This document shows positions 20,615 through 58,137 of a stretch of 64,000 bases of DNA, piece after piece. How positions within the stretch are numbered: the stretch's first letter is position 1; each line of letters starts with the position of its first letter. Position numbers and translations under genes: made by a program. The DNA comes from Acidobacteriota bacterium (GTDB taxonomy: Bacteria > Acidobacteriota > JAAYUB01). The DNA lies in NCBI GenBank assembly GCA_029565065.1, contig JAKQOW010000131.1:6901-70900 (forward strand), given 5' to 3'. The notes below the pieces were generated by a model that did no database searches, was not told the DNA's origin, and saw only the letters and a program-made list of their open reading frames with translations.

Positions 20615-20659
20615 CAGCCCCGCCGTCGCTCCTTAGAATCAGATCGGGTGTTTGAGCGA

Positions 20660-20830
20660 AACCGTTGACCGGTGCCCTCGGGCGAATCGGGAAAGTGGTG
20701 CGAATCCACTGCGGGCCCGCCGCTGTGACCGGGGACGAAGGCCGCACATCGCCACTGTCCGGACGGATTCCGGATGGGAAGGCGCGGCCGGAGGACGATC
20801 CGGAAGCCAGAAGACCGGCCGGTCGATGTT
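20660..20830 (+). promoter_or_regulatory. Cobalamin (AdoCbl) riboswitch
   Basis: The sequence carries the conserved core GGTGCC..GGGAAagtGGTGcgAATCCactGCgGgCCCGCcgCTGTgAcCGG, plus GCCACTG...GGGAAGGC and the B12 box AGCCAGAAGACCGGCC (20805-20820). It is followed by a GC palindrome and a T-run, a possible attenuator. It lies directly upstream of the btuF-like gene. Confidence 0.85.
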
Positions 20831-20972
20831 TTCACTGGACTCCTCGCGGAGACAGGATACAGTGATGCCCCGCTGGCTTTCCATCCTCGCTGGCCGGCCC
20901 GATGCTTTCGGGCCGGCGCTCATTGCCGGTCAAGTCAACCGCCGTTCGGCGGGACTGCCCCTGCCACGTTCC

Positions 20973-47584: not shown

Positions 47585-49303
47585 CTACATTTTCTCCAAC
47601 AGCCGTTCCACTTCTTTGAACACGGCGGAACCCGCCTGTTCCAATTCCGGCCTCAGGACCGCTCGGGCGTATTGAACGGCGCGCGCCGCGTCGTCGGACA
47701 GCACACCAAGCAGGTAGGCGATTTTTCCTTTCAGCCCGTGGATCGTGTTGAAGACGACCTCGCTGTGGAAGAGCAGGGGACGCGCGCACAGGATGTCCAC
47801 CTCGTTGGACCGCAGGAGCATGTCCGCCCGCAGGCGCTCCACCGCGTCGGCCGGGGGATTTCGCTGGGCGATGACGGGTTGCAGCACCACCCGGACGGCC
47901 TGCAGCACCTCCTGAGTCCGGCGGAGATGCCGCAGGCATTCCGCCCGGTGCAGGCTGAATTCCCGCTCGTCGGCCGGCGGCGGCTCCTTGGCTTCCTGCT
48001 GACCGTCCAGCTTGAAGATGGCGCGCAGGTGCTGGGTGGTCAGCGGACGATCACCGAACATGGCGTGCAGGCTGGACAGCACCATCAGGAGTTCACGCGC
48101 GTTGCCCGGCCAGGCATAGCCCCGCAGCTCGTTCAGGATGTCGTCCGGCAGCGCGCCCGTCGGATTGCGGGTGATGCGCTGCCAGAAATGCTGGGCCAGT
48201 CGGGGGACGTCGTCGAGATGACGCCGCAGAGCGGGCGTGCGGATGAGCATGCCCCGGAGGCGGTAGTACAGGTCTTCCCGGAACTCGCCGCGCTGGACCA
48301 TGCCGAACAGGTCGCGGTTCGTCGCCGCCAGCACGCGGACATCCAACTGGACGGGCTCCCGGGCGCCCAGGGGCAGAATGGCCTTGTCGTCCAGCACCCG
48401 CAGGATCTTGGCCTGTTGCGGCAGGGGGAGTTCGGCGACCTCGTCCAGAAAGATGGTGCCGTGATTGGCCGCCTCCCAGAGGCCGATCCGGTCAGCCTGG
48501 GCGTCGGTGAACGCGCCCTTCTTGTACCCGAAAAACTCGGACTCCAGCAAATTCAGCGGAATGGCGCCGCAGTTGACGGGCACGAAGCGGCTTTTTCCGC
48601 GCCGGCTCAGGCTGTGAATCTCCTGGGCGACGATGTTCTTGCCGGTGCCGGTGTCGCCGACGATGAGCACGGCGCATTCGGCCCGGGCCGCCTGGATGAT
48701 GAGCTGCCGGACCAGCTCGGCCTCCATGGATTGCCCGACGAATTTGGAGTCGAGCACCCTGGCCTCGGCATGGTAGCCGATGAGTTGGATCAGGGATCCG
48801 TCGCCGGCCGTCTCGGACTCTGTCTCCGGAGCGGTCGGAGCCGGAACGGCGGCTCCCGCGGCGCCCGCCGCGGGGGCGGCGGTCTCGCCGCCCGCTGGGT
48901 CGGGCCTGGCCATCGTCCACAAGCTGTCGAACAAATCCGGCGGGATGCCCACGATGGCGCGCAAGTGCGTGCTGCCGGAGCCGGTGTGTTTAAGGAAATC
49001 GCAGACGCTGCGCTGCAACTGACCGGTTGAACGGTAAACGCCTTCGACAAGCGGAATCTTGCCGGCCGGGCCGCCCGTGAGGTAGGTCTTCAATCCCTTA
49101 TGGACGTTCTTGATGCCCCGATCCACCACCAGATCGACCATGGTGCGGAAACCGGCCAGATCCGCGTTGTCGACCAGGTAGATCGCAGCCTGGGGCGGTT
49201 TGGGGACTTTTTCCAAATCCTGTGTCCGGTTACGTGGCAGCGCGCACCGGAATGGGCCTTCAGGCGGTTTGCCCGTCAGGTACTTCAACGCACGAGCAGT
49301 CAT
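47585..49303 (-). CDS. Sigma-54-dependent transcriptional activator (bEBP AAA+ core) with unassigned N-terminal domain and no recognisable C-terminal Fis-type HTH
   Basis: The central domain has Walker A GDTGTGKN, GAFTGA-type KGAFTDA, Walker B IFLDEV, the arginine fingers and sensor II. The 150-aa N-terminus and 170-aa C-terminus are not recognisable by eye. It is divergent from the sigma-54 promoter operon. Confidence 0.85.
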   Translation of the reverse strand: MTARALKYLTGKPPEGPFRCALPRNRTQDLEKVPKPPQAAIYLVDNADLAGFRTMVDLVVDRGIKNVHKGLKTYLTGGPAGKIPLVEGVYRSTGQLQRSVCDFLKHTGSGSTHLRAIVGIPPDLFDSLWTMARPDPAGGETAAPAAGAAGAAVPAPTAPETESETAGDGSLIQLIGYHAEARVLDSKFVGQSMEAELVRQLIIQAARAECAVLIVGDTGTGKNIVAQEIHSLSRRGKSRFVPVNCGAIPLNLLESEFFGYKKGAFTDAQADRIGLWEAANHGTIFLDEVAELPLPQQAKILRVLDDKAILPLGAREPVQLDVRVLAATNRDLFGMVQRGEFREDLYYRLRGMLIRTPALRRHLDDVPRLAQHFWQRITRNPTGALPDDILNELRGYAWPGNARELLMVLSSLHAMFGDRPLTTQHLRAIFKLDGQQEAKEPPPADEREFSLHRAECLRHLRRTQEVLQAVRVVLQPVIAQRNPPADAVERLRADMLLRSNEVDILCARPLLFHSEVVFNTIHGLKGKIAYLLGVLSDDAARAVQYARAVLRPELEQAGSAVFKEVERLLEKM

Positions 49304-49590
49304 GGGGCACCTCGTTGAGTTGATGATCGATTGTACCTGCGATGTTTGTCCAACTCAACATAATATTGCAAATTAATCGGTGAGTTGACTAACGGTTGAG
49401 TAGTATGGAAATCATAATGCAAATATTATAAATAACATGCGTTTGTAATCGGAAGAGAAGCCAATGAATTTTGAGTAAAAAATTGAGTTATGGGTCTGTT
49501 TCTCAACCATTCGGGCCAATTGAATGCCTAAATATCAATCTGTTCGGTTGAGAACTTTGTAACAAAAACAAAAATAAGAATTTAGTAATT

Positions 49591-49606
49591 TGGCATGCTC
49601 TGTGCA
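49591..49606 (+). promoter_or_regulatory. Sigma-54 (-24/-12) promoter TGGCATG-N4-GTGCAT
   Basis: GG and GC are spaced exactly as in the consensus TGGCACG-N4-TTGCA. It lies about 65 nt upstream of the ATG at 49670, in a 365-nt AT-rich intergenic region carrying multiple GAGTTGA/TCAACTC inverted repeats (candidate UAS). Confidence 0.55.
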
Positions 49607-49669: not shown

Positions 49670-51916
49670 ATGGCCAAACTCAATCTCAATGGCGTGGAAT
49701 TCTGGAGCGGCAGCACAGTCCATGACACCGTGCGCCAGTTGGCCGGTCTCTGCGAGCAGGTGGTCCATGCGCCCATCCCCATCGCGCCGGGCGGCGACAG
49801 TTTCACGATGCCGTGCGATCCGGCGATGAAACGCCGGGGCATCCTGGGCATTGAGGGAAGATACAAGCCCGATGACGACATCGTGGAAATCGTCATTCTT
49901 CTGGTCGAGGGGCCGGCCCAGGCCCGAAGCGGCGTGTCGGCGGTGTTTCAGAAACTGGCCGCGCTGTCGGATCGGGTGCACTGTCTGGAGCCCGAGATCG
50001 ACAACGACCGCGTCGCACTGCGGATGCTGCTCAGCGTCAAGGCCTCGATGTTGTCGTTGAGTCGGCAGGAGAAGTTCATTGACGAGTTGACGAAGCTGGA
50101 CGACCTGGCCCGCTTGCTCCAGGAGGAGATCCCGTCTGACAAGACGGACCAGGAGCTGGAGGCGGCCTACCGGAAGGTGCGCGAGGTCGTCGAGCCGGTG
50201 CGGCCGCTGGCACAGGGCGAGGCGGATCTGGAACCGGCTCACGTGGCGTGGGCCCGCGAGATTCTGGATTACCTGGGTGGCGCCGCGCCCGTCGCCGTCG
50301 CGGCGCCGTCGCTGGCGCTCACGGATTACGCGCAGGCGTTGCTGGCCCGGGTGGCGATGGGCACGGGGGGAAGTCTCGGGCGGCTGGCGGTGCCTTCCGT
50401 CAACACGCAGGGTCTGGTGGAGTTGGTGCGCCGCGCGCCGGGCTTCGTGGTGGTGCCGGTGGAGAGCATCAGTCTCGGCGCCAGCCGCTACGAACTGGGG
50501 AATGAGGTCCGCGCCCTGCTGGCGACCCTGGTGGCAGGGGGGAGGTCCCCGATCTTTACGGGGACCTATGAGGAGCTCCAGGGGGTGTTCCACGGGGGGC
50601 AGGGCGCGGCCTCGGACCCGTTGATGCCGGTGGTGCGGCACATCCCGAATGTGGCGCTGCCGGCGCTGGCCGAGGTGGCGGTCCAGGTGGCCAGCCGCCC
50701 GCACGGCGGCCTGCCGCCGGCCCGACGGAAGGAGCTGACCCGATGGGTGTTGGCGGCCCTCGACGGGCGGAGCGACTCCCAGCAGCAGCGGATCCTGCCG
50801 CTGGTGGCGCGCAAGGTGGTCACCGATTATTTCGCCGGGCGCTACCTCGGCCCCGATGCAGCCAACGGGTTCGCCGACCGCTCCGCCGCATTGAGTGAGA
50901 CGTTTGCCGGTCTATGCGTCCGCCCGCGGGCGATGCGGACGGCGGAAGTCCAGGCGGCGTGGGTGCGGACGCTTGCGTCGCCGGAGCTGCTGGCCACCTT
51001 CCGCGAACACCTGCTGGCTCAGGACCGGGCGCTCGAGGCGCTCAGCCGGCGGCTGACCATGGAAGTGCTGACGCGGCCGCTGCATCAGCCCCTCCGCTAT
51101 TGCGCCCAGGGAACGCCCGGCACGGGCAAGTCGGAGAGCGCCCAGCTCCTGGCCCAGGTGCTGGACGTGCCGTTCGTGGTCATCGACGCGGCGAGCATGT
51201 CCGACGCCTACACCGTCACCAGCCAGCTGCTGGGGTCCAGCCGGGGGATCGTGAACTCCTACCAACCCGGCCGGCTGGAACAGGTGGCCAAGCACCACCG
51301 TGGCGCCGTGGTGGAGATCTGCGACATCGACCATGCGCCGCCGCCGGTGCAGTCGGCCCTGGCGGCGCTCTGCTTCCAGGTGCTGGAAAACGGCGAGGCG
51401 CAGAGCTCGGCCGGCGGGATGTTCTCCTGCGCCAACCTCATCTTCGCCTTCACGATGAACCTGCCGGGGGGCATGGATGAGGCGGTCCGCCGCGACGGCA
51501 TCGGCTACAACAACGCGCCCACGGCCCGGACGGTGAAGAACAAGATCGTGAACGAGATCAAGGGCATGCTCAGCGGCGCCTTCCTGAGCCGGATCGGCAC
51601 GCCCATCCTGTTCGAACCGCTCGACGGCGATGCGCTGGCGGCGATCGTGGAGCGCGCCGTGGCCGAGGCGGTGCGCGCCGCCGCCGAGCGCCTGGGCCGA
51701 CCGGTACCGGCGGTGGCCGTCGGTGCGGGGGTGGGCCGGGCGGTGCTGGCCACGCTCGAGGCCAGCGTCATCGCCTTCGGCGCCCGCGCCATCCTGGAGC
51801 ACGGCCGCGCCCTGGCGGCGGAAGCGGTGCTCCGCTGGGAAGGCGGGGCCGCCGCGGACCAGCCGGTGCGCGTCGAGGCGCGCGGCACCGGCGAGCTGGA
51901 CATTCTGACCGATTGA
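49670..51916 (+). CDS. Diverged ClpA/ClpB-family AAA+ protein: degenerate D1-like region plus C-terminal AAA_2 (ClpB D2-like) module with atypical Walker B
   Basis: The C-terminus has Walker A GTPGTGKSE. The segment ...LGSSRGIVNSYQPGRLEQVAKHHRGAVVEICDIDHAPPPVQSALAALCFQVLENGEAQSSAGGMFSCANLIFAFTMN is colinear with ClpB D2 (...[68 protein letters not shown]), but DE becomes CD/DI. A central region resembles ClpB D1 without Walker A. Confidence 0.8.
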   Translation: MAKLNLNGVEFWSGSTVHDTVRQLAGLCEQVVHAPIPIAPGGDSFTMPCDPAMKRRGILGIEGRYKPDDDIVEIVILLVEGPAQARSGVSAVFQKLAALSDRVHCLEPEIDNDRVALRMLLSVKASMLSLSRQEKFIDELTKLDDLARLLQEEIPSDKTDQELEAAYRKVREVVEPVRPLAQGEADLEPAHVAWAREILDYLGGAAPVAVAAPSLALTDYAQALLARVAMGTGGSLGRLAVPSVNTQGLVELVRRAPGFVVVPVESISLGASRYELGNEVRALLATLVAGGRSPIFTGTYEELQGVFHGGQGAASDPLMPVVRHIPNVALPALAEVAVQVASRPHGGLPPARRKELTRWVLAALDGRSDSQQQRILPLVARKVVTDYFAGRYLGPDAANGFADRSAALSETFAGLCVRPRAMRTAEVQAAWVRTLASPELLATFREHLLAQDRALEALSRRLTMEVLTRPLHQPLRYCAQGTPGTGKSESAQLLAQVLDVPFVVIDAASMSDAYTVTSQLLGSSRGIVNSYQPGRLEQVAKHHRGAVVEICDIDHAPPPVQSALAALCFQVLENGEAQSSAGGMFSCANLIFAFTMNLPGGMDEAVRRDGIGYNNAPTARTVKNKIVNEIKGMLSGAFLSRIGTPILFEPLDGDALAAIVERAVAEAVRAAAERLGRPVPAVAVGAGVGRAVLATLEASVIAFGARAILEHGRALAAEAVLRWEGGAAADQPVRVEARGTGELDILTD

Positions 51917-51925
51917 GGAGGAATC

Positions 51926-52939
51926 ATGGCTGGCAACGTTTACAGCGTCTGCGATCCGGAGCAGTACCGGAAGGCGGGGCCCACCGATCTGGTGGAGCTG
52001 CTGCCGCCGCCGGGGGGCAATCCGCTGTACCTGCAGAAATGGCTGGTGGAGACTCTCGTGTTCGCCATCGTCCACCATGAATTCGTGCACCTGTCGGGGC
52101 CCACCGGGAGCGCCAAGAGCTCGCTCCTGGAGGCGCTCTACACAGTTCCGGAGAACTTCCGGGGGGTGTGCGACGGCCTGGGTTGCGCGTCGCGGCCCCT
52201 GAAGCTGTTCCCCATCGAGATGGCGACCTTCGAGGCGCCGGGCGAGCTGTACCAGCGCCGGGCGCTGAAAGACGGCACGACCTACGACGAGCCGAGCCGG
52301 CTGGTGGCCGCTCTGGCGGCAGCCGCCCGGTGCGCCGGTTCGGCGTACCCGCTGATCTGGCTGCGCGAGATCGGACGAGTGCACTCGTCCAGCGTCCAGG
52401 GCGGCTTGCTCAATCTGATGACGCGGGCCGAGATCGTGCTGCCGGACGGGACGCACTTTCCGGGGCAGGGCATCGCCTGGGTGGCCGACAGCAACTATCA
52501 GGCCGAGCAGAGCGCCACCCATACCCTGGTCACCCTGGACGACGCGCTGAAGCGGCGGTTCACCATCAATCTGACGCTGGACTACCTCACGGCCGAGCAG
52601 GAGGTCCAGGTGCTGGAGCACATTTTCAACGGCAACGGCGGCGCCCCGGTGCCCGCCGAGCTCATCGTGAAGGTGGTGCAGCTGGGCAACGTCGTCCGGC
52701 GCCACCGCAGCGAGGGGAACCTGCAGACGCTGACGCCGCCCACCATCTACGGCTACATGGCCTTCCTCCGGACGGCCCGGGCGCTGCCGCATCTGAGCTT
52801 GCAGCAGGTGGCGCTGGCCACGCTGCTCGGCAACGCCGGCTCCGAGGACCGCAAGCACGTGGCCGGTGTGTTCAATGAGGTGTTCGGCCTGCAGACCGAG
52901 GAGGAGGAAGACCCGACGATGGTGGGGAACCTGTTCTGA
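51926..52939 (+). CDS. MoxR/CbbQ/NorQ-like AAA+ ATPase (AAA_5) with variant Walker B
   Basis: Walker A is GPTGSAKSS. The sensor/Walker B region LIWLREIGRVHSSSVQGGLLNLMTRAEIVLPDG parallels MoxR's [27 protein letters not shown], but DE is replaced by RE. It is 337 aa. Confidence 0.8.
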   Translation: MAGNVYSVCDPEQYRKAGPTDLVELLPPPGGNPLYLQKWLVETLVFAIVHHEFVHLSGPTGSAKSSLLEALYTVPENFRGVCDGLGCASRPLKLFPIEMATFEAPGELYQRRALKDGTTYDEPSRLVAALAAAARCAGSAYPLIWLREIGRVHSSSVQGGLLNLMTRAEIVLPDGTHFPGQGIAWVADSNYQAEQSATHTLVTLDDALKRRFTINLTLDYLTAEQEVQVLEHIFNGNGGAPVPAELIVKVVQLGNVVRRHRSEGNLQTLTPPTIYGYMAFLRTARALPHLSLQQVALATLLGNAGSEDRKHVAGVFNEVFGLQTEEEEDPTMVGNLF

Positions 52940-52972
52940 TTGTCCGGGAGTGCACGGGATTGGGGAGGATCC

Positions 52973-55093
52973 ATGAAACCGAAACGAAAGACGGCCAGGA
53001 CGGCGACGGAACGGACGGGTTATTCGTTCGCGCTTCGCTCGCGCCGGAACAAGTCCGATTGGGCCGGCATCGGCATCGCTGACGCGTTCAAGCAGAACAT
53101 CGACTACTTCCACCGGTCCCAGGCCCAGCGGCTCTTCTACCGCCAGCTCAAGAAGACGGTCCGCGCGGTGGCCAAGCTGGACGGCACCGAGGCCCCGCAC
53201 CTGTTGCAACCGCGGGTCAAACCGCAGCTCTCGCCCTGCTACTCCAGCTATCCGGCGGGGCTGGCGGTGTACGCGGCCATCGGCCTGACGGCGTTTCTGG
53301 AATTCAAGGCCCGGATCTCGGACAGCCGGTTCCTGTCGTATCTGAACACCCAGCTCGGCGTGCAGATGGCGGACAGCGACGTCCGGGCCGATCCCGAGCT
53401 GGCCGAGCTCACTGCCCACAGCGTGGCCAACTGGATGCACAGCCGGCTGCTCATCGAGGACCTGGCCCGGCGGGCGGCGCTGTCCGCCATCGAGGTGTAC
53501 CGCCTGTTCGCCGCGGCCCAGGAAGACCTCCGTTTTGCCACCGTGGACGACATCATCCGCGCGGTGATCCTCTACGGCGACGTCCTGTGCGAGCCGTGGC
53601 ATCTGAACCTGCATCCGCTGACCGCCCGGATCCTCCGGGATCTCATTGTGGCCAGCGCGCCGTTCTACGAACGCCTGCCCGAGGTGCCGGACCGGGACTT
53701 GCTGGAGATGGGCGCCGCCTGGTCCTGGCGGCTGATGGCCGTTCTGCTGCGCTACCTGCCGCCGCCCGGCCAGCCAGAGGAGAAACAGCCCAAGGAGGCG
53801 CGGAAAGGGCGGAATCGGCTGATGGAACTGCTGGGCGCCTCCATGCCCGCCGACGAAAGCATCCGCGGCGACAGCGAGTTGGCCCCGTTCGACGGTCCCG
53901 TGCCGCCGGTCGTCAACCGGCCGGAGAATCCCCTCGACTGGCTCATGAACCAGTTGTCGGGCGGGACGGGACGCGACCGCATCCGCGACGCCGATAAGCT
54001 GGCGACGGTCGAGGATGGGATCTATAAAACCCTGGAGGAATTTCAAGCGGCGCTGGGCGGCGCGGCGGGCCAGTCCGGCAACTGGGAGGACATGCGGTCC
54101 GATCTGCTGGAGAACTCGCTTCGCGCGATCCCGTTCGCGGCCGGACCCATCGAGGGGAACCCGGCCGACGGGCATGAGGTCAAGGTGTCGATGTACGGCG
54201 ACGAGCGCGCGATGGGGGAGCTGTTCGACCGCCCCGTGGCGCCGTCGGACGACGTGGCGGCATGTCACAGCCTGGTGGAGGATGCGGCGCCCCTGACCGC
54301 AACCCTGCGCCAGAACCTCTATCCGAACATCGAGCAGCGGCCGGAGATCCAGCGCCTGCGCTGCAGCGGCGGGCTGGACGGCGCGCGCCTGCCGCTGGCG
54401 GAGTTTTCCGAGACGGTCTTCCGGCGCTACCGGATCCGCGAGGTGGCCGATCCGCGGGGATCGCCGGTGCTGGTGATCGCCTGCGACGGCTCCGGCTCAC
54501 TCAACGAGAAGCAGATGCGGATGGTCAAGCTGTTGTCGGCTGCCTATCTGCAGTCCACCGCCCGGAGCAGTATCCAGGTGCTCGCCGCCCTCTACCACAG
54601 CGGCGACATCCGGCCGGGCGTTTCGGGGCCGCTGGTCCAGTGGATGTACCATCCGCGCAAGTCCATCGCCCGGAGCCGCCAGGACGCCGTGCGGAGCGTC
54701 GTCACGTTGCCCGACACCGGTACCGGCGTGCAGAGCGATGCGCTGTCCATCGCGTTCATCATGGACGAGGCTCGCCGGATTGCACGCGGCCACATGATCT
54801 ACCTGGTGCTCATCACCGACACCAGCTGGAACCGCAGTTTCAACCGGTCCGAAACCGGCGCCGAGGAGGTTCGCGGCTATTTCGAGGACCTCTATGAACG
54901 CTTCCCGGGCCAGGTGCACACGACTCTGGTGGCGTTGGGCGTGGCGGCGCCGACGGGCTTCGAGGACCTGCTCAACGCGGTCATCGGAGTCACCCACGAG
55001 GAATTGTCCGACAGCGCCGCGGTGGCCGAGAAAGTCGGCGTATACGTCGCCCGCTGCATTCGCGAACGCACCCGGCTCATCGCCCGGGCCTGA
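52973..55093 (+). CDS. Large VWA-domain protein (CbbO/NorD-like partner of the MoxR-type ATPase); N-terminal about 480 aa unassigned
   Basis: The C-terminal VWA domain has the MIDAS motif VLVIACDGSGS and downstream T/D ligand positions. It has a GGAGGA RBS before the ATG at 52973. It lies directly downstream of the AAA_5 ATPase, as in CbbQO/NorQD pairs. Confidence 0.75.
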   Translation: MKPKRKTARTATERTGYSFALRSRRNKSDWAGIGIADAFKQNIDYFHRSQAQRLFYRQLKKTVRAVAKLDGTEAPHLLQPRVKPQLSPCYSSYPAGLAVYAAIGLTAFLEFKARISDSRFLSYLNTQLGVQMADSDVRADPELAELTAHSVANWMHSRLLIEDLARRAALSAIEVYRLFAAAQEDLRFATVDDIIRAVILYGDVLCEPWHLNLHPLTARILRDLIVASAPFYERLPEVPDRDLLEMGAAWSWRLMAVLLRYLPPPGQPEEKQPKEARKGRNRLMELLGASMPADESIRGDSELAPFDGPVPPVVNRPENPLDWLMNQLSGGTGRDRIRDADKLATVEDGIYKTLEEFQAALGGAAGQSGNWEDMRSDLLENSLRAIPFAAGPIEGNPADGHEVKVSMYGDERAMGELFDRPVAPSDDVAACHSLVEDAAPLTATLRQNLYPNIEQRPEIQRLRCSGGLDGARLPLAEFSETVFRRYRIREVADPRGSPVLVIACDGSGSLNEKQMRMVKLLSAAYLQSTARSSIQVLAALYHSGDIRPGVSGPLVQWMYHPRKSIARSRQDAVRSVVTLPDTGTGVQSDALSIAFIMDEARRIARGHMIYLVLITDTSWNRSFNRSETGAEEVRGYFEDLYERFPGQVHTTLVALGVAAPTGFEDLLNAVIGVTHEELSDSAAVAEKVGVYVARCIRERTRLIARA

Positions 55094-55105: not shown

Positions 55106-56221
55106 ATGGGCAACCGCACCACGACCACCGACACGCTGACGCTGCCGAAACCGGCAGGCGGCTGGTCATCGACGTTCGACTATGGCACCGGCGACTGGTG
55201 GAGCCGCCGGCCGGAGGTGGATCGCCGCAAGGCATTGGCGCCCGTTCTGAATCAGCTCCAGCGGCTGGACGCCCAGCGCCTCCGGCTGGAGCGGGAAGGG
55301 GGGACGGTGAAGGATCTGGCCGTCCTGACCCGCATCCTGAGCGAGCCGCTGCGCGTCGAGGGCCACTACGGCCCCGCGACCTGCTCATTGCGGGATCCGC
55401 GCGCGCTGCGCACGGCGCTGCTGGATGTCGACTACGATCTGCACCACGATGTGCGGCAGCTGCCCGACCTGCTGCCGGTGTACTACGTGAGCCGGACGCG
55501 CCGGGACTACTGGGGCGAGTACAGCCTGGTGGTGGAGGATTTTCACCTGAGCCCCGGCTACCCGCTTCAGGACGAGCGGTTCGTGCGCCTGATGGACGTC
55601 GGCCACGAGGTATACTTTCTGCGGCTGGCGCACCTGCGGGACGCCGCACGGGCCATGCTGGGGGGCGCCGGCTCCGGCGACGGGGCGGTGGACGCCCTGT
55701 TGTACGACCTGGGGCGGCACGTTTTCCAGGCCGCCTGGCATGAGGACCAGCGGCTGGGCATTCTGGTGGCTGATCATTTCCGCCTGACGGCGTTCCGGCA
55801 GGCCATCGAGCTGCTTTACCTGTGCCTGAGCGGCGAGCTGTGCGAACTGCGGCACGCCATCACGCCGGATATGCTGCGGTTTTTCGTCGAGGCCTACGAG
55901 CAGCCCGCGATCCGCCGCTTCCTGGAACGGCTGCACGACCTGGATGGCGCCATGATCACCGATCTGCCCCGGCAGGGCCGGGTGCTCTACAAGCGACTGG
56001 GACACGCGTTCAGCCGGTGCCTCGGCACCGAGGTGCTGTGGGGGTTCGGCCGGCGGATGATCCCGCTCTGGAAGGTGGTCTATGGCAACCTGACCCGGTT
56101 GGAGGCGGTCGGCCGGCAGTTGCGGGCCGATCCGCGGGTGATCACCGCGTGCGGCCGGCTGGAGAAAGAAGCCGAAGCAGTCATTGATGAACTGGCGGGA
56201 GGCGGAACGTCAGCGCGGTGA
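55106..56221 (+). CDS. Hypothetical protein, last gene of the sigma-54 AAA+/VWA operon
   Basis: The 371-aa ORF has an AGGAGG-like RBS (CAGGAGGAAGCC ATG) and coding-like GC3. No family is recognisable. Confidence 0.6.
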   Translation: MGNRTTTTDTLTLPKPAGGWSSTFDYGTGDWWSRRPEVDRRKALAPVLNQLQRLDAQRLRLEREGGTVKDLAVLTRILSEPLRVEGHYGPATCSLRDPRALRTALLDVDYDLHHDVRQLPDLLPVYYVSRTRRDYWGEYSLVVEDFHLSPGYPLQDERFVRLMDVGHEVYFLRLAHLRDAARAMLGGAGSGDGAVDALLYDLGRHVFQAAWHEDQRLGILVADHFRLTAFRQAIELLYLCLSGELCELRHAITPDMLRFFVEAYEQPAIRRFLERLHDLDGAMITDLPRQGRVLYKRLGHAFSRCLGTEVLWGFGRRMIPLWKVVYGNLTRLEAVGRQLRADPRVITACGRLEKEAEAVIDELAGGGTSAR

Positions 56222-56319: not shown

Positions 56320-58137
56320 TCAATCGGCCGATGGCCGGTTGAGGCGGATGATTTTGAAACCGGCGCCGGCGAGAAAACGGGGGAGCTGCCGCACCGGCTC
56401 CCGATCCTGGTCGCGCACCGGTTCGGTGAGCGCCTCCCACGGCACCAGGTAGGGTGAGATCTTCCGGTCCACGTCCTTGGCGGGACCCGGGCGCCAGCCG
56501 GCGCGGCGGCGCTCGTCCACCCACCGGTCATGCTCCAGGCGGGCCAGACGCTCCACCTCGTCGGCGGTGAACGCGAAGAGCGATTCGTCCCAGTCCGTGA
56601 GCGGCGCCAGCGCGCAGCCCAGCTCGCGCAGCTTGACGCCGATGTGGGCGGCCTGGTCGCGGTTGGAGTCGCGCAAATGTTCCGGCAGCTCGTCCCAGGG
56701 CACCATGGCCGGGTTGGTCGCCGGCGTCTCGCCGCGCTCCCGCTGATGCCGGCAGTAGTCGGCATGGATGGCCCGGGCCAGGGCCTCGTGGGTGCCGGCC
56801 AGGATCTGCTCGGGGCGGCAAGCCTGGTCCAGCAGGCTGAAGGCCTGGATGGCCGGCGGGGCGCCGGGCGCGGCCTCGTCGCCGCGCAACAGCGTGGCCA
56901 GCCCCGCGTCCCCCGTCATCCGGACCACCACGGGTATGCCCAGGGTTCGCGTGCGGGGCTGGATGGCCAGTGCCGCCGCCAGGCCCAGGGCGTCGTTGTC
57001 GAGACAGATGAACACCGCAGTCGCGCCATCCTGCGCCGGAAGATAATCGCCGCGGTGGAATTCGGGCGACTCCACGTCTATGTCCAGGGCGGTGAGACGG
57101 CAGGCCTGGGCCAGGCGGGGATAGCGGTGGCAGAGCGACGCCACCTTGGCGGCGGCGATCCGGTCGATCACGGTCACATGGAATTCGCCGTCGGCACCCG
57201 CGTCGCGCCATCCGCGCGCCGCCTGGACGAGCAGGCTCTCGCCCATGCGCCCCAGGCCCACCAGCGTGAGGTGCGGGGCCGGGAGCGGGCGGCCCTCCGG
57301 CCCGGTAGTGGCCGGATGGAGCGACAGCCACGAGCGGGCGCCGATGTCGAAGACGTTGAAGAATTCCAGGCGGTACGGGTCCCGGTGCCGGCGCTCCAGC
57401 TCCTGTTCCACGAGGAGGCGGCAGAGCTGCGGGTCCGTGATGTGGACCACCGCCTGCAGCGGCTGGCCCCGCCTCCATCGGGCGAGTTCCCGGGCGTGCA
57501 CCGCCACCTCGGCGTTGGCCCCGTCGTCGCCGCAGACGGCGACGACACAGGCGGCCTCGCCCAGCCGCGCCTTGCGCAGCATCTCGACATCGGTGGCGTC
57601 GCCCGGCAGCACGACGACTCCCAGGTCGCGGCACTGGGCGATGTGGTCGTTCCCCTCGTCGCGTTCGATGGCGACCACCCGCCGGCCCCCGGCGCGCAGT
57701 TCCCGCGCCAGGCGCAGGCCCTTCCGGCCCAGCCCGCAGATGACCACGTGGCTGCGCACGAAGCGCATCCGGAACAACTGCAGCTGCTCGCGGAACACCA
57801 GGGCGAAGGCTTTCACCGCGGCGATGGCGGCGATGCCGGGCGCGAGCAGTCGGGCCACCTCCAGTTCCCAGCCCACCGCCGGGCCGTAGACCGAGCCTGA
57901 CTCCAGGGTGAAGAGCTGCAGGGCCAGGTACAGGATGTCCCAAAACGAACGCGACTGGCCCGTGGCGGCACAGTAGTTCCGGAAACCGACGATGCCGAGC
58001 CCGATGGACGCGAGTGCCAGCGCGCCGATGATCAGCCACTGGTGGTCCTGCAGCGCGCGCAGGGCCCGTTTCCCGATGCTCTGCCCGTTTCCGCTCCGCG
58101 AAACGCCGTGGCCGGATGCCGTGTGGTCCATGGACAT
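56320..58137 (-). CDS. Membrane-anchored protein with tandem TrkA-N/RCK (NAD-binding) domains and a C-terminal RyR (ryanodine-receptor-like) domain
   Basis: It has two N-terminal TM helices and Rossmann motifs VVICGLGRKGLRLAREL and LTLVGLGRMGESLL. The C-terminal block NPAMVPWDELPEHLRDSNRDQAAHIGVKLRELGCAL resembles the bacterial RyR-domain signature (W..LPE...SNRDQA.HI..KL). Confidence 0.65.
   Translation of the reverse strand: MSMDHTASGHGVSRSGNGQSIGKRALRALQDHQWLIIGALALASIGLGIVGFRNYCAATGQSRSFWDILYLALQLFTLESGSVYGPAVGWELEVARLLAPGIAAIAAVKAFALVFREQLQLFRMRFVRSHVVICGLGRKGLRLARELRAGGRRVVAIERDEGNDHIAQCRDLGVVVLPGDATDVEMLRKARLGEAACVVAVCGDDGANAEVAVHARELARWRRGQPLQAVVHITDPQLCRLLVEQELERRHRDPYRLEFFNVFDIGARSWLSLHPATTGPEGRPLPAPHLTLVGLGRMGESLLVQAARGWRDAGADGEFHVTVIDRIAAAKVASLCHRYPRLAQACRLTALDIDVESPEFHRGDYLPAQDGATAVFICLDNDALGLAAALAIQPRTRTLGIPVVVRMTGDAGLATLLRGDEAAPGAPPAIQAFSLLDQACRPEQILAGTHEALARAIHADYCRHQRERGETPATNPAMVPWDELPEHLRDSNRDQAAHIGVKLRELGCALAPLTDWDESLFAFTADEVERLARLEHDRWVDERRRAGWRPGPAKDVDRKISPYLVPWEALTEPVRDQDREPVRQLPRFLAGAGFKIIRLNRPSAD

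What the first reader, a model, noticed from the sequence alone, without database searches (positions are those of the whole stretch)
49670..52939. Both AAA+ ATPases of the operon carry non-canonical Walker B motifs
In the ClpB-D2-like module, the position aligned to hhhhDE ([11 protein letters not shown] in ClpB) reads VVEICDIDHAP, so the catalytic Glu appears absent. In the MoxR-like protein, the segment aligned to LLADEINRA reads LIWLREIGRV, with Asp replaced by Arg and Glu kept. Walker A motifs are intact in both (GTPGTGKSE; GPTGSAKSS). Paired ATP-binding but hydrolysis-impaired AAA+ modules suggest a holdase, switch or substrate-trapping role rather than a processive unfoldase. This is unusual for Clp/MoxR families.
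Basis: inference. Interest (0 to 1): 0.6.

Follow-up and report, generated by a model that had tools for sequence, protein, structure and literature searches.

The report
Rewired Walker B in paired AAA+ ATPases
Two neighbouring ATPase genes really do lack the standard catalytic motif, the change is conserved across many bacterial phyla, and they belong to an undescribed sigma-54-controlled gene cassette, so the odd motifs are a functional design and not decay.

Summary
In ORF1 (Clp/Hsp100-like), profile alignment to ClpC/ClpA puts C551-D552 at the Walker B Asp-Glu positions. Across 77 family members this reads S/C/A then D, never D-E.

In ORF2 (MoxR-class; its model matches NorQ/CbbQ), R147-E148 replaces D-E in 120 of 121 homologues. 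Its nearest outgroup keeps D-E.

Both proteins keep the Walker A Lys, sensor 1 and the Arg finger. Both gained a conserved acidic residue nearby: E549 in ORF1 and D188 in ORF2. D188 and a Walker B Asp never occur together. ORF1 also has a motif-less pseudo-D1 tier and lacks the pore-loop Tyr. ORF2 lacks the sensor 2 Arg.

The genes sit in a cassette conserved in 40 metagenome-assembled loci from about ten phyla: a divergent sigma-54 activator, then the Clp-like gene, the MoxR-like gene, a vWA-like gene and an unknown gene. Neighbours are often TIR, NACHT, RelA/SpoT-RyR and NUDIX genes. dN/dS is 0.05-0.24.

The most likely reading is slow or conditional ATP-switch remodellers in a conflict or stress module. 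This resembles the MoxR-vWA ternary systems, but with a Clp-type third ATPase. Loss of hydrolysis is inferred, not shown, and rewired but active sites remain a serious rival.

The parts
47585..49303 (-). Divergently transcribed sigma-54 enhancer-binding protein (572 aa). It has canonical Walker A (GDTGTGKN), a GAFTDA loop and Walker B (FLDEV), plus an uncharacterised N-terminal domain of about 130 aa.
   Evidence: Pfam Sigma54_activat 4e-61 and AAA_lid_14. NCBIfam matches RtcR/PrdR/NifA-type models over the AAA core only. Sequence. Present divergently upstream of the cassette in most of 40 loci. The N-terminal domain has no PDB match.
49314..49554 (.). AT-rich intergenic region with GTTGAG / CTCAAC inverted repeats. 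These are candidate activator binding sites (UAS).
   Evidence: Inverted pairs I2, I3 and I4. Three of the six exact GTTGAGT matches in the 64-kb window fall here. The function is inferred.
49591..49606 (+). Sigma-54 type -24/-12 promoter-like element TGGCATGctctGTGCA, 64 nt upstream of the ORF1 ATG.
   Evidence: Sequence. Sites matching at least 10 of 12 consensus positions occur upstream of ORF1 homologues in 15 of 33 loci, against 12 of 660 control windows.
49670..51916 (+). ORF1, a 748-aa Clp/Hsp100-like two-tier AAA+ protein.
   Evidence: Pfam AAA_2 1e-13, 52 bits against a cutoff of 27. PDB ClpC 2e-17 with the family profile. AlphaFold pLDDT 85.5. Foldseek aligns about 640 columns to ClpA/ClpC/ClpB D1+D2 chains, E 7e-22.
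49718..50128 (+). ORF1 N-terminal domain (aa 17-153): helix, beta-sheet, long helix. Family-specific; it is not a Clp_N domain.
   Evidence: Secondary structure of the model. No Pfam hit. No hhalign match to canonical Clp.
50234..50899 (+). ORF1 pseudo-D1 tier (aa about 189-410). It has an AAA+-like alpha/beta plus lid fold but no Walker A (AAPSLALT at the P-loop position) and no Walker B (IFTGTYEE).
   Evidence: Five strands alternating with helices, then helices 330-406. Foldseek alignments span both Clp tiers. Motif strings. There is no sequence-level similarity to D1, so this rests on the predicted fold.
51002..51913 (+). ORF1 D2-like AAA+ module (aa 445-748).
51110..51136 (+). ORF1 Walker A, GTPGTGKSE (K487, S488).
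   Evidence: K and S are invariant in 77 of 77.
51233..51259 (+). ORF1 pore-loop region GSSRGIVNS. It aligns with GAPPGYVGY of Clp D2, so the Tyr is replaced by I527.
   Evidence: In the family this position is I 66, L 5, V 2, Y 2, F 2.
51305..51337 (+). ORF1 deviant Walker B, AVVEICDIDHA. C551 sits at the Asp position, D552 at the Glu position, and E549 is a new residue at position -2.
   Evidence: Register. Strand 546-551. Column counts.
51449..51463 (+). ORF1 sensor 1 (FTMNL, N597).
   Evidence: N in 76 of 77.
51581..51595 (+). ORF1 Arg finger (FLSRI, R641). It aligns with FLNRI of Clp D2.
   Evidence: R in 76 of 77.
51776..51790 (+). ORF1 sensor 2 (FGARA, R706). This is the GAR motif of Clp D2.
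   Evidence: R in 76 of 77.
51926..52939 (+). ORF2, a 337-aa divergent MoxR-class AAA+ protein.
   Evidence: AlphaFold pLDDT 85.4. Foldseek top hits are NorQ (3e-14) and CbbQ (4e-12). The family profile matches PDB CobS at 1e-6 and MoxR 2r44 at 1e-4. Pfam AAA_5 scores 21.9 bits against a cutoff of 22. dN/dS is 0.045.
52097..52123 (+). ORF2 Walker A, GPTGSAKSS (K64).
   Evidence: G58, G61 and K64 are invariant in 121 of 121.
52346..52384 (+). ORF2 deviant Walker B, YPLIWLREIGRVH. R147 sits at the Asp position, E148 is the retained catalytic Glu, and R151 corresponds to the Arg of MoxR DEhNR.
52481..52501 (+). ORF2 sensor 1 strand, VADSNYQ. N190 is sensor 1. D188 is a family-specific Asp where the outgroup has Thr (ATAN).
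   Evidence: D188, S189 and N190 are invariant in 121 of 121. Among 73 representatives: 59 lack a Walker B Asp and have D188, 10 have a Walker B Asp and T188, 4 have neither, 0 have both.
52538..52561 (+). ORF2 Arg-finger region, DDALKRRF (R210, R211).
   Evidence: Each R is present in 120 of 121. It aligns with DRF of MoxR and CobS.
52730..52750 (+). ORF2 sensor 2 position, LTPPTIY. T273 sits where CobS and outgroup proteins have the Arg of SPR.
   Evidence: CobS alignment. T in 113 and S in 7 of 121. Outgroup SPR.
52973..55093 (+). ORF3 (706 aa from the ATG at 52973, which has a GGAGG ribosome-binding site; the mechanical ORF starts at TTG 52940). Large N-terminal region plus a C-terminal vWA-like domain.
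   Evidence: It follows the MoxR-like gene in all loci. No Pfam or PDB sequence match.
54452..55054 (+). ORF3 C-terminal vWA-like domain with a MIDAS-like pattern D516-x-S518-x-S520 ... G594-T595-G596 ... D627 (numbering from the TTG start).
   Evidence: The listed D, S and G positions are invariant in 28 of 28 sequences; T595 is predominant. hhalign to an integrin I-domain aligns only DGSGS plus helix 1 (E 0.0036, probability 9%). The assignment is inconclusive.
55106..56221 (+). ORF4, a 371-aa conserved protein of unknown fold. Candidate client, adaptor or effector. Invariant residues include H212, D214, Q215, E235 and R249.
   Evidence: Always the last gene of the cassette.
56320..58137 (-). 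Convergent neighbour, a 605-aa TrkA_N + RyR-domain protein. Possibly an accessory component.
   Evidence: Pfam. RyR-domain proteins flank the cassette in about ten loci, six of them as RelA_SpoT(+SLOG)+RyR proteins.

Best explanation
The two deviant Walker B motifs are real, ancient, family-defining features of two partner AAA+ proteins. Both are encoded in a conserved cassette switched on through sigma-54.

The cassette has five genes: a divergent enhancer-binding activator, ORF1 (Clp/Hsp100-like), ORF2 (MoxR-class), ORF3 (vWA-like) and ORF4 (unknown).

Proposed working (inferred):
1. An unknown signal acts on the activator's N-terminal domain. The activator binds the GTTGAG repeats and fires the -24/-12 promoter.
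2. ORF2 forms a ring that carries ORF3 through its C-terminal vWA-like domain, as NorQ carries NorD.
3. ORF1 forms a two-tier ring in which only D2 binds nucleotide.
4. In both ATPases the Mg-binding Walker B Asp has been given up and a new carboxylate sits nearby: E549 two residues upstream on the same strand in ORF1, and D188 on the neighbouring sensor 1 strand in ORF2. ORF1 also has Asp for the catalytic Glu, as in switch-type hhhhDD ATPases, and no pore-loop Tyr. ORF2 has no sensor 2 Arg.
5. The result is ATP-dependent assembly with slow or partner-triggered hydrolysis. The complex would clamp, time or gate a client (ORF4 or a foreign protein) and would not thread it.
6. The genomic company points to a conflict or stress-response role.
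For: Shown:
- Motif register and family-wide conservation.
- MoxR-class fold of ORF2.
- Two-tier Clp-like fold of ORF1 with a motif-less D1.
- Pore-loop Tyr lost in 73 of 77 members.
- Near-invariant Walker A Lys, sensor 1 and Arg finger in both proteins, and the GAR sensor 2 in ORF1.
- E549 in 76 of 77 and D188 in 121 of 121. A Walker B Asp and D188 never occur together (59/10/4/0).
- In divergent relatives the old Asp position drifts (R, K, Q, H, S, M, V, L, P, I) while the Glu stays invariant in 73 of 73.
- Five-gene synteny in 40 loci from about ten phyla.
- Enrichment of sigma-54 promoter-like sites upstream.
- dN/dS 0.045-0.24.
- Flanking genes are rich in TIR, NACHT/STAND, RelA_SpoT-SLOG-RyR and NUDIX.

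Background: in NorQ the Walker B Asp binds Mg2+ and the Glu is catalytic, and NorQ E109Q keeps about 2% of activity (PMC9976466). MoxR-vWA pairs with a third AAA+ protein whose N-terminal tier is inactive are predicted thresholding devices in conflict systems (PMC7159879).
Against: - No biochemical data exist for any member.
- The D188 / Walker B Asp exclusivity may reflect a single ancestral event, so it is weak as statistics.
- Strong conservation of the Arg finger, sensors and Glu could equally mean normal, fast hydrolysis.
- The vWA identity of ORF3 rests on a motif pattern only.
- No PADLOC system matches, and the defence-type neighbours vary, so the conflict role is guilt by association.
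- A strong sigma-54 promoter-like site was found in only 15 of 33 loci.
Confidence: 0.5

Rival explanations
1. The sites are rewired but fully active. Both ATPases hydrolyse ATP at ordinary rates. In ORF2, D188 replaces the Walker B Asp as the Mg2+ ligand and E148 remains the catalytic base. In ORF1, E549, D552 and D554 share the Mg-binding and base roles. The motifs are then only cosmetically non-canonical, and the proteins are normal remodelling motors.
For: Walker A Lys, sensor 1 and Arg finger are near-invariant in both, the Glu is invariant in ORF2 and GAR is kept in ORF1. New conserved carboxylates appear exactly where the Asp was lost. ORF2 is under very strong purifying selection (dN/dS 0.045). 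No canonical motor other than the transcription activator exists in the cassette, so some component must supply energy.
Against: ORF1 also lost the pore-loop Tyr and has a dead D1. ORF2 lost the sensor 2 Arg. Four ORF1 homologues have Ala at the Asp position. Glu to Asp at the catalytic position is typical of slow switch ATPases (own knowledge: the hhhhDD motif of STAND and DnaA). The geometry could not be tested.
Confidence: 0.25
2. Both are pseudo-ATPases. They bind ATP only as a structural cofactor for ring assembly, or bind nothing, and serve as scaffolds. Any work is done by host chaperones.
For: The Mg-binding Asp is lost in both. An Arg or Lys at that position in ORF2 could neutralise phosphates without metal. 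Pseudo-D1, loss of the pore-loop Tyr and loss of sensor 2 show a trend towards degeneration. Hsp70 genes flank two loci.
Against: Residues needed only for hydrolysis or gamma-phosphate sensing stay invariant across phyla: ORF2 E148 and N190, ORF1 N597, D552 and R706, and the Arg fingers. A dead site would be expected to drift, as ORF1's D1 did.
Confidence: 0.12
3. At the system level this is a maturation or activase machine in the manner of NorQD, CbbQO or CobST, not a conflict system. ORF2 and ORF3, helped by ORF1, would insert a cofactor into, or reactivate, ORF4 or another enzyme.
For: The closest structures and sequences are NorQ, CbbQ and CobS. ORF3 has the NorD-like layout of an N-terminal domain plus a C-terminal vWA-like domain. 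ORF4 has invariant His, Asp and Glu residues and is always co-encoded.
Against: No known target enzyme is conserved next to the cassette. Flanks differ between genomes and are dominated by TIR, NACHT, RelA_SpoT-RyR and NUDIX genes. The distribution across phyla is sporadic. The cobalamin riboswitch in the window is 29 kb away and precedes ABC-transporter genes.
Confidence: 0.15
4. The finding is an artefact: a misaligned register, sequencing error or pseudogenes.
For: None after testing.
Against: Pairwise, profile and multiple alignments and two predicted structures all agree on the register. The motifs are invariant in 77 and 121 homologues from independent assemblies. The reading frames are intact and dN/dS is well below 1.
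Confidence: 0.01

Closest known systems
Class I Clp/Hsp100 ATPases (ClpA, ClpC, ClpB, Hsp104)
   Same: ORF1 aligns by sequence to D2 (AAA_2; ClpC 2e-17). Its predicted fold aligns to both tiers. Walker A, sensor 1 Asn, Arg finger and the GAR sensor 2 sit at the homologous positions.
   Different: D2 Walker B is S/C-D instead of D-E, with a new Glu at position -2. The GYVG pore-loop Tyr is Ile. D1 has no P-loop or Walker B. The N-domain is unrelated to Clp_N. The gene lies in an operon with MoxR-like and vWA-like genes under sigma-54 control.
MoxR-class AAA+ proteins with vWA partners (NorQ/NorD, CbbQ/CbbO, CobS/CobT, RavA/ViaA)
   Same: The ORF2 model is closest to NorQ and CbbQ, and its lid is similar in sequence to CobS and MoxR 2r44. 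It has the GxxGxAK[ST] Walker A, the E-x-x-R part of DEhNR, sensor 1 Asn and the RRF Arg finger. It is followed by a roughly 700-aa protein with a C-terminal DxSxS...T...D pattern, like NorD.
   Different: The Walker B Asp is Arg or Lys (other residues in divergent members, never Asp). The sensor 2 Arg is Thr. There is a new invariant Asp two residues before sensor 1. No known client enzyme is linked. The partner's vWA identity is not detectable by HMM.
MoxR-vWA 'ternary' conflict systems, especially the FtsH-type subsystem (Kaur, Burroughs, Iyer, Aravind 2020, eLife; PMC7159879)
   Same: A MoxR plus vWA pair combined with a third conserved AAA+ protein that has two AAA+ domains, the N-terminal one inactive. 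In the simpler FtsH-type variant the vWA protein has a large N-terminal domain. These systems occur in bacteria rich in STAND and TIR type conflict genes.
   Different: Here the third ATPase is of Clp/Hsp100 D2 type, not FtsH type, and its active tier is itself deviant. The MoxR lacks the Walker B Asp. The Pfam bpMoxR model does not match (14.5 bits against a cutoff of 27). The divergent sigma-54 activator here was not found mentioned in that paper's main text (text search).
Switch-type P-loop ATPases with an hhhhDD Walker B (STAND NTPases, DnaA) - own knowledge, not tested here
   Same: Asp in place of the catalytic Glu, combined with slow, regulated hydrolysis used as a timer or switch. ORF1 has Asp at this position in 77 of 77 members.
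   Different: Those families keep the first (Mg-binding) Asp, whereas ORF1 has Ser, Cys or Ala there. They also belong to different AAA+/P-loop clades.

Membership tests
Clp/Hsp100 (class I, two-tier) | D2-type AAA+ module (Pfam AAA_2) above the gathering score | tested here: met
   52.1 bits against a cutoff of 27, E 1e-13. ClpC 2e-17 with the family profile.
Clp/Hsp100 (class I, two-tier) | Walker B hhhhDE in D2 | tested here: not met
   The query has C551-D552. In the family this is S/C/A followed by D in 77 of 77; canonical Clp proteins have D-E in 9 of 9.
Clp/Hsp100 (class I, two-tier) | Aromatic pore-loop residue (GYVG) in D2 | tested here: not met
   I527 in the query. Family: I 66, L 5, V 2, Y 2, F 2.
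Clp/Hsp100 (class I, two-tier) | Sensor 1 Asn, trans Arg finger and GAR sensor 2 in D2 | tested here: met
   N597, R641 and R706 are each present in 76 of 77.
Clp/Hsp100 (class I, two-tier) | Nucleotide-binding D1 tier with Walker A and Walker B | tested here: not met
   The fold is present: Foldseek spans about 640 columns of D1+D2 chains. The P-loop position reads AAPSLALT and the Walker B position reads IFTGTYEE. There is no sequence similarity to D1.
Clp/Hsp100 (class I, two-tier) | Clp_N N-terminal domain; ClpP-binding loop or ClpB M-domain | tested here: inconclusive
   No Clp_N Pfam hit. The ClpP loop and M-domain were not examined specifically.
MoxR-class AAA+ | MoxR-type fold (closest structures are MoxR members) | tested here: met
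   Foldseek NorQ 3e-14 and CbbQ 4e-12, TM-score (target-normalised) about 0.7.
MoxR-class AAA+ | Pfam AAA_5 above the gathering score | tested here: inconclusive
   21.9 bits against a cutoff of 22. Some homologues carry a precomputed PF07728 hit.
MoxR-class AAA+ | Walker B D-E within the DEhNR motif | tested here: not met
   REIGR in the query, with R147 in 120 of 121. The Glu and the motif's Arg are kept in 121 of 121. Outgroup proteins have LLDE.NR.
MoxR-class AAA+ | Sensor 2 Arg in the lid (S/T-P-R) | tested here: not met
   It aligns to PPT; T273 in 113 of 121.
MoxR-class AAA+ | Walker A Lys, sensor 1 Asn and Arg finger | tested here: met
   K64 and N190 in 121 of 121; R210 and R211 each in 120 of 121.
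MoxR-class AAA+ | Adjacent vWA-domain partner with a MIDAS motif | tested here: inconclusive
   ORF3 has an invariant DxSxS...GTG...D pattern and a beta-alpha layout. There is no Pfam, PDB or remote-homologue hit to vWA. hhalign to an integrin I-domain gives probability 9%.
MoxR-vWA ternary conflict systems (FtsH-type) | Third conserved component is a double FtsH-type AAA+ protein with an inactive N-terminal domain and a fully canonical C-terminal domain | tested here: not met
   The third component is a double AAA+ protein with an inactive first tier, but it is of Clp D2 type and has a deviant Walker B.
MoxR-vWA ternary conflict systems (FtsH-type) | Match to the Pfam bpMoxR model, one MoxR model from these systems | tested here: not met
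   PF20030 scores 14.5 bits against a cutoff of 27, over 32 residues only. bpMoxR belongs to the beta-propeller subsystem, so this is an indirect test for the FtsH-type.
MoxR-vWA ternary conflict systems (FtsH-type) | Association with conflict or effector genes | tested here: inconclusive
   Among 161 flanking ORFs: TIR 9, RyR 8, NACHT at least 6, RelA_SpoT 6, NUDIX at least 2. No background rate for these genomes was measured.
Catalogued anti-phage systems (PADLOC 2.0) | Match of the components to a system's models | tested here: not met
   Only weak partial AAA hits for ORF1 (DolB 5e-6, PDC-M37B 9e-6). Nothing for ORF3 or ORF4.

The most novel reading that the evidence does not exclude
These two families represent a new kind of AAA+ active site in which the Mg2+-binding carboxylate has moved off the Walker B position. 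In the MoxR-like protein it moved to the sensor 1 strand (D188), with Arg or Lys filling the old site. In the Clp-like protein it moved two residues upstream (E549). Together with a vWA-like protein and ORF4, they would form an undescribed sigma-54-induced, three-AAA+ immune or stress machine that works as an ATP-timed clamp and not as a threading motor.
Probability: 0.3. Interest if true: 0.75.

Novelty: new variant of a known kind. Interest (0 to 1): 0.6.

Why it matters
The hhhhDE Walker B motif is treated as near-universal in working AAA+ motors, and its loss is routinely read as 'inactive'. Here two partner ATPases from different AAA+ clades both gave up the Mg-binding Asp. Both kept every other nucleotide-sensing residue under strong selection across about ten phyla.

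If the new carboxylates (D188, E549) take over, this is a natural experiment in active-site rewiring, and it warns against motif-based calls of pseudo-ATPases. If they do not, the pair is a clean natural example of ATP-locked AAA+ rings used as switches.

Either way, the cassette is a compact, conserved and so far unstudied module. Only 155 representative ORF2-type proteins were found among 1.84 billion, and all 40 genomic loci found are from metagenome-assembled genomes. It links sigma-54 regulation, a Clp-like ring and a MoxR/vWA-like pair, and it often sits next to TIR, STAND and alarmone-type genes.

Tried and rejected
- **Degenerate D1 by sequence.** hhalign of ORF1 aa 1-440 against canonical Clp gave nothing (probability 0.1). 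The pseudo-D1 claim rests on the predicted fold and the Foldseek alignment span only.
- **vWA identity of ORF3.** Pfam on 28 members, PDB profile searches of the full protein and of the C-terminal domain, and a third large-database search with the C-terminal profile returned only family fragments and no vWA-annotated relative.
- **ORF4 and the activator's N-terminal domain.** No Pfam, NCBIfam or PDB matches.
- **Known defence systems and named families.** PADLOC and NCBIfam gave nothing beyond generic AAA hits. Megablast against plasmids found no match.
- **Programmed frameshift in ORF2 homologues.** Rejected. The frame change is +1 in some loci and -1 in others. Each case has a stop overlapping or abutting an ATG, and several have a GGAGG site upstream. 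These are split, translationally coupled genes.
- **Link to cobalamin.** ORF2's CobS similarity plus a B12 riboswitch in the window suggested this. Rejected: the riboswitch is 29 kb away and precedes ABC-transporter genes.
- **Literature.** Text searches found no description of this cassette.
- **Model coordinates.** Not exposed, so distances from D188, E549 and R147 to the nucleotide site could not be measured.

Full report
**1. What is at the coordinates**

Two co-directional ORFs fill 49670-52939. ORF1 is 49670-51916 (748 aa) and ORF2 is 51926-52939 (337 aa).

Pfam places ORF1 aa 480-642 in AAA_2, the ClpA/B D2 type (1e-13, 52 bits against a cutoff of 27). ORF2 aa 56-177 matches AAA_5 at 21.9 bits, just under the cutoff of 22.

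**2. Is the by-eye register right?**

Yes, for both proteins.
- ORF1: phmmer against PDB (ClpC 1.9e-11, ClpA 2.2e-11) and a 51-sequence family profile (ClpC 2e-17) pair E549-I-C551-D552-I-D554-H555-A556 with [8 protein letters not shown]. MAFFT alignment with nine canonical ClpA/B proteins gives the same pairing. The AlphaFold model (pLDDT 85.5) ends strand beta3 at residue 551. So the Walker B Asp position is Cys and the catalytic Glu position is Asp.
- ORF2: phmmer against MoxR structure 2r44 pairs E148-I-G-R151 with E-V-N-R of the MoxR DEhNR motif. The model (pLDDT 85.4) ends beta3 at R147. So Asp is replaced by Arg and the Glu is kept.

**3. Conservation**

ORF1 has 76 full-family homologues at 35-97% identity, followed by a sharp drop to canonical Clp proteins at E about 1e-8. 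Column counts over 77 sequences:

| Position | Residues |
|---|---|
| Walker B Asp position | S 69, C 4, A 4 |
| Walker B Glu position | D 77 |
| -2 (canonical Leu) | E 76, D 1 |
| +3 | D 77 |
| +4 | H 77 |
| Walker A | K 77, S 77 |
| Sensor 1 | N 76 |
| Arg finger | R 76 |
| Sensor 2 (GAR) | R 76 |
| Pore-loop Tyr position (GYVG) | I 66, L 5, V 2, Y 2, F 2 |

ORF2 has 363 or more homologues, and the 120 listed are 57-99% identical. Over 121 sequences: R147 in 120, E148 in 121, G150 and R151 in 121, K64 in 121, D188-S189-N190 in 121, and R210 and R211 each in 120. T273 (113, plus S in 7) sits where CobS has the sensor 2 Arg of SPR.

**4. Wider relatives of ORF2**

A full HMMER scan of 1.84 billion representative proteins found only 155 hits at E of 1e-3 or better. 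Among the 73 representatives with both positions aligned:
- In the core family the old Asp position is R (32) or K (12).
- In divergent members it is Q, P, V, S, M, I, H, L or E. It is never D inside the family.
- The following Glu is invariant in 73 of 73.
- The weakest hits (E about 1e-4) are the nearest outgroup. They have canonical LLDE.NR; their sensor 1 reads ATAN or a close variant with Thr at position -2, and where the lid aligns some have SPR.

An Asp at Walker B and an Asp two residues before sensor 1 never occur together:

| Walker B Asp | D188 | Count |
|---|---|---|
| absent | present | 59 |
| present | absent (Thr) | 10 |
| absent | absent | 4 |
| present | present | 0 |

In the AAA+ core sheet the strand order is beta5-1-4-3-2 (established knowledge). 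The sensor 1 strand therefore lies between the P-loop strand and the Walker B strand, so D188 is placed to reach the Mg2+/Walker A Ser region. This is an inference, and probably one evolutionary event, so it is not statistics. ORF1 shows a parallel change: it lost the Asp and gained E549 two residues upstream on the same strand.

**5. Architecture of ORF1**

Foldseek against PDB aligns about 640 columns to ClpA, ClpC and ClpB chains that contain both D1 and D2 (E 7e-22 to 1e-18). The model shows three parts:
- a family-specific N-domain (aa 17-153);
- an alpha/beta plus helical-lid module (aa about 189-410);
- D2 (aa 445-748).

The middle module reads AAPSLALT at the P-loop position and IFTGTYEE at the Walker B position. 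It is a pseudo-ATPase D1 tier. Sequence methods do not detect it, so this rests on the predicted fold.

**6. ORF2 fold**

The top Foldseek hits are NorQ (3e-14 and below) and CbbQ (4e-12). By sequence profile the best solved relatives are CobS (1e-6, lid region) and MoxR 2r44 (1e-4). ORF2 is a MoxR-class AAA+ protein.

**7. The cassette and its control**

Upstream and divergent lies a 572-aa sigma-54 enhancer-binding protein (Sigma54_activat 4e-61). It has canonical Walker motifs and a GAFTDA loop.

The 366-nt AT-rich intergenic region carries TGGCATGctctGTGCA at 49591-49606. It also carries several GTTGAG/CTCAAC inverted repeats.

ORF1 to ORF4 are tightly packed, and ORF2, ORF3 and ORF4 each have a GGAGG ribosome-binding site. 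ORF3 most likely starts at the ATG at 52973.

A pattern scan of 185,579 species genomes found 40 loci. All are metagenome-assembled genomes, from Acidobacteriota (two at 96-99% identity to the window), Nitrospirota, Thermodesulfobacteriota and Desulfobacterales, Myxococcota, Lentisphaerae, Brocadiia, Hydrogenedentota, Cytophagia and others. tblastn shows the order activator(-), ORF1, ORF2, ORF3, ORF4 in nearly all of them, as do two loci fetched through ORF1 homologues.

Sigma-54 sites matching at least 10 of 12 consensus positions occur upstream of ORF1 in 15 of 33 loci, against 12 of 660 control windows.

Against the 88-98% identical locus L004, dN/dS is 0.24 for ORF1, 0.045 for ORF2, 0.17 for ORF3 and 0.22 for ORF4.

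**8. ORF3 and ORF4**

Neither protein has a Pfam, NCBIfam, PADLOC or PDB sequence match, even using family profiles.

The last 200 or so residues of ORF3 show an alternating beta/alpha conservation pattern: invariant D516-x-S518-x-S520, G594-T-G596...D600, and D627 at the end of a hydrophobic strand. That is the MIDAS layout of vWA domains (DxSxS-T-D; PMC9976466). Its position after a MoxR gene and its N-terminal-domain-plus-vWA layout mirror NorD. Direct tests were inconclusive.

ORF4 (371 aa) has invariant H212, D214, Q215, E235 and R249. Its role is unknown.

**9. Neighbourhood**

Outside the five genes nothing is universal. Among 161 ORFs within about 4 kb of the cassette in 35 loci, the most frequent Pfam families include:
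- TIR_2: 9;
- RyR: 8;
- NACHT/NPHP3_N STAND proteins with TPR, WD40 or Ank repeats: at least 6;
- RelA_SpoT: 6, as roughly 850-aa RelA_SpoT(+SLOG)+RyR proteins;
- NUDIX: at least 2.

The window's own convergent neighbour (56320-58137) is a TrkA_N + RyR protein. The loci carry DUF4062-NACHT and TIR genes next to the activator. These are typical parts of nucleotide-signalling conflict systems. No background rate was measured, so this is suggestive only.

**10. Most likely mechanism**

Shown:
- A conserved operon under purifying selection with a sigma-54 activator and promoter.
- A MoxR-class ring protein and a two-tier Clp-like protein whose only P-loop is in D2.
- Family-wide loss of the Walker B Asp in both.
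- Retention of the trans Arg finger and sensor 1 in both.
- Loss of the pore-loop Tyr (ORF1) and of the sensor 2 Arg (ORF2).

Inferred:
- Both bind ATP at subunit interfaces and use it for assembly and state switching.
- Hydrolysis is slow or needs a partner. In ORF1 the catalytic base is Asp, as in hhhhDD switch ATPases (own knowledge: STAND, DnaA).
- The Mg2+ ligand is supplied, if at all, by the relocated carboxylates.
- ORF3 docks on the ORF2 ring through its vWA-like domain and presents a MIDAS site to a client. ORF1 clamps that client and does not thread it.

This matches the 'thresholding by NTPase chaperones' idea proposed for MoxR-vWA ternary systems (PMC7159879). I put about 0.5 on this overall picture. 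Within it, the motif facts are near certain and the kinetic and functional claims are open.

**11. Comparison with known systems**

The cassette works most like the FtsH-type MoxR-vWA ternary systems: MoxR, a vWA protein with a large N-terminal domain, and a double AAA+ protein whose first tier is inactive. It fails membership on tested points. The third ATPase is Clp-D2 type and is itself deviant, bpMoxR does not match, and the MoxR lacks D-E.

ORF1 is a Clp/Hsp100 relative by homology but fails four defining features: D1 motifs, D-E, the pore-loop Tyr and Clp_N. ORF2 is MoxR-class by fold but fails D-E and sensor 2. No paper found in four text searches describes the cassette.

**12. Verdict**

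Novelty: a new variant of a known kind. Interest: 0.6.

Noticed in passing
L002 9938-10952; L024; L026 9001-10016; L029-L033; L035; L038 (ORF2 homologues): In 10 of 42 loci the MoxR-like gene is split, at the variable loop around aa 235-248, into two translationally coupled genes: a core of about 240 aa and a lid piece of about 98 aa. In most the stop and start overlap (ATGA or GTGA), with a GGAGG-type site upstream in several. The frame offset is +1 in some loci and -1 in others, so this is gene fission and not a programmed frameshift.
   Followed up: yes
window 56320-58137 (-); L008 1902-4442, L013, L019 1437-4031, L021, L030 15521-18247, L042 16481-18952: RyR-domain proteins recur next to the cassette. 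In the window the neighbour is TrkA_N + RyR. In six other loci it is a roughly 850-aa RelA_SpoT (+ SLOG/LSDAT_prok) + RyR protein, and in some of them a small NUDIX gene lies beside it. This may be an accessory nucleotide-signalling arm.
   Followed up: partly
flanks of L001-L042 (within about 4 kb of the cassette): Flanking genes are rich in TIR_2 (9), NACHT/NPHP3_N STAND proteins with TPR, WD40 or Ank repeats (at least 6), Hsp70 (2) and radical SAM (2). Classical AAA (PF00004, 4) and AAA_5 (2) genes are also present, which might belong to a second MoxR-type system nearby (not checked). No background frequency was measured.
   Followed up: partly
window 49314-49554: There are several GTTGAG/CTCAAC inverted repeats in the AT-rich region between the activator gene and ORF1. 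They look like enhancer (UAS) sites for the sigma-54 activator.
   Followed up: partly
L025 9001-9969 and 15917-16885: One locus carries two paralogous copies of the MoxR-like gene (55% and 42% identity to the query). An ORF1-like gene lies between them, which suggests a tandem duplication of the cassette.
   Followed up: no
window 20653-20837 (+): A cobalamin riboswitch (Rfam RF00174, 120 bits) is followed by ABC-transporter genes (ABC_tran, FecCD). It is ordinary and unrelated to the cassette, despite ORF2's CobS-like lid.
   Followed up: yes
window 47585-49303 (-), aa 1-130: The activator's N-terminal domain of about 130 aa is conserved in many loci and matches no Pfam or PDB family. In some loci (L001/L007, 388 aa) it is missing altogether. 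It is probably the signal-sensing domain.
   Followed up: partly
window 52940-52975: The mechanically listed ORF3 start (TTG at 52940) is probably wrong. An ATG at 52973 is preceded by GGAGG, and it gives a 706-aa product, the same length as the ORFs extracted from L003 and L004.
   Followed up: yes
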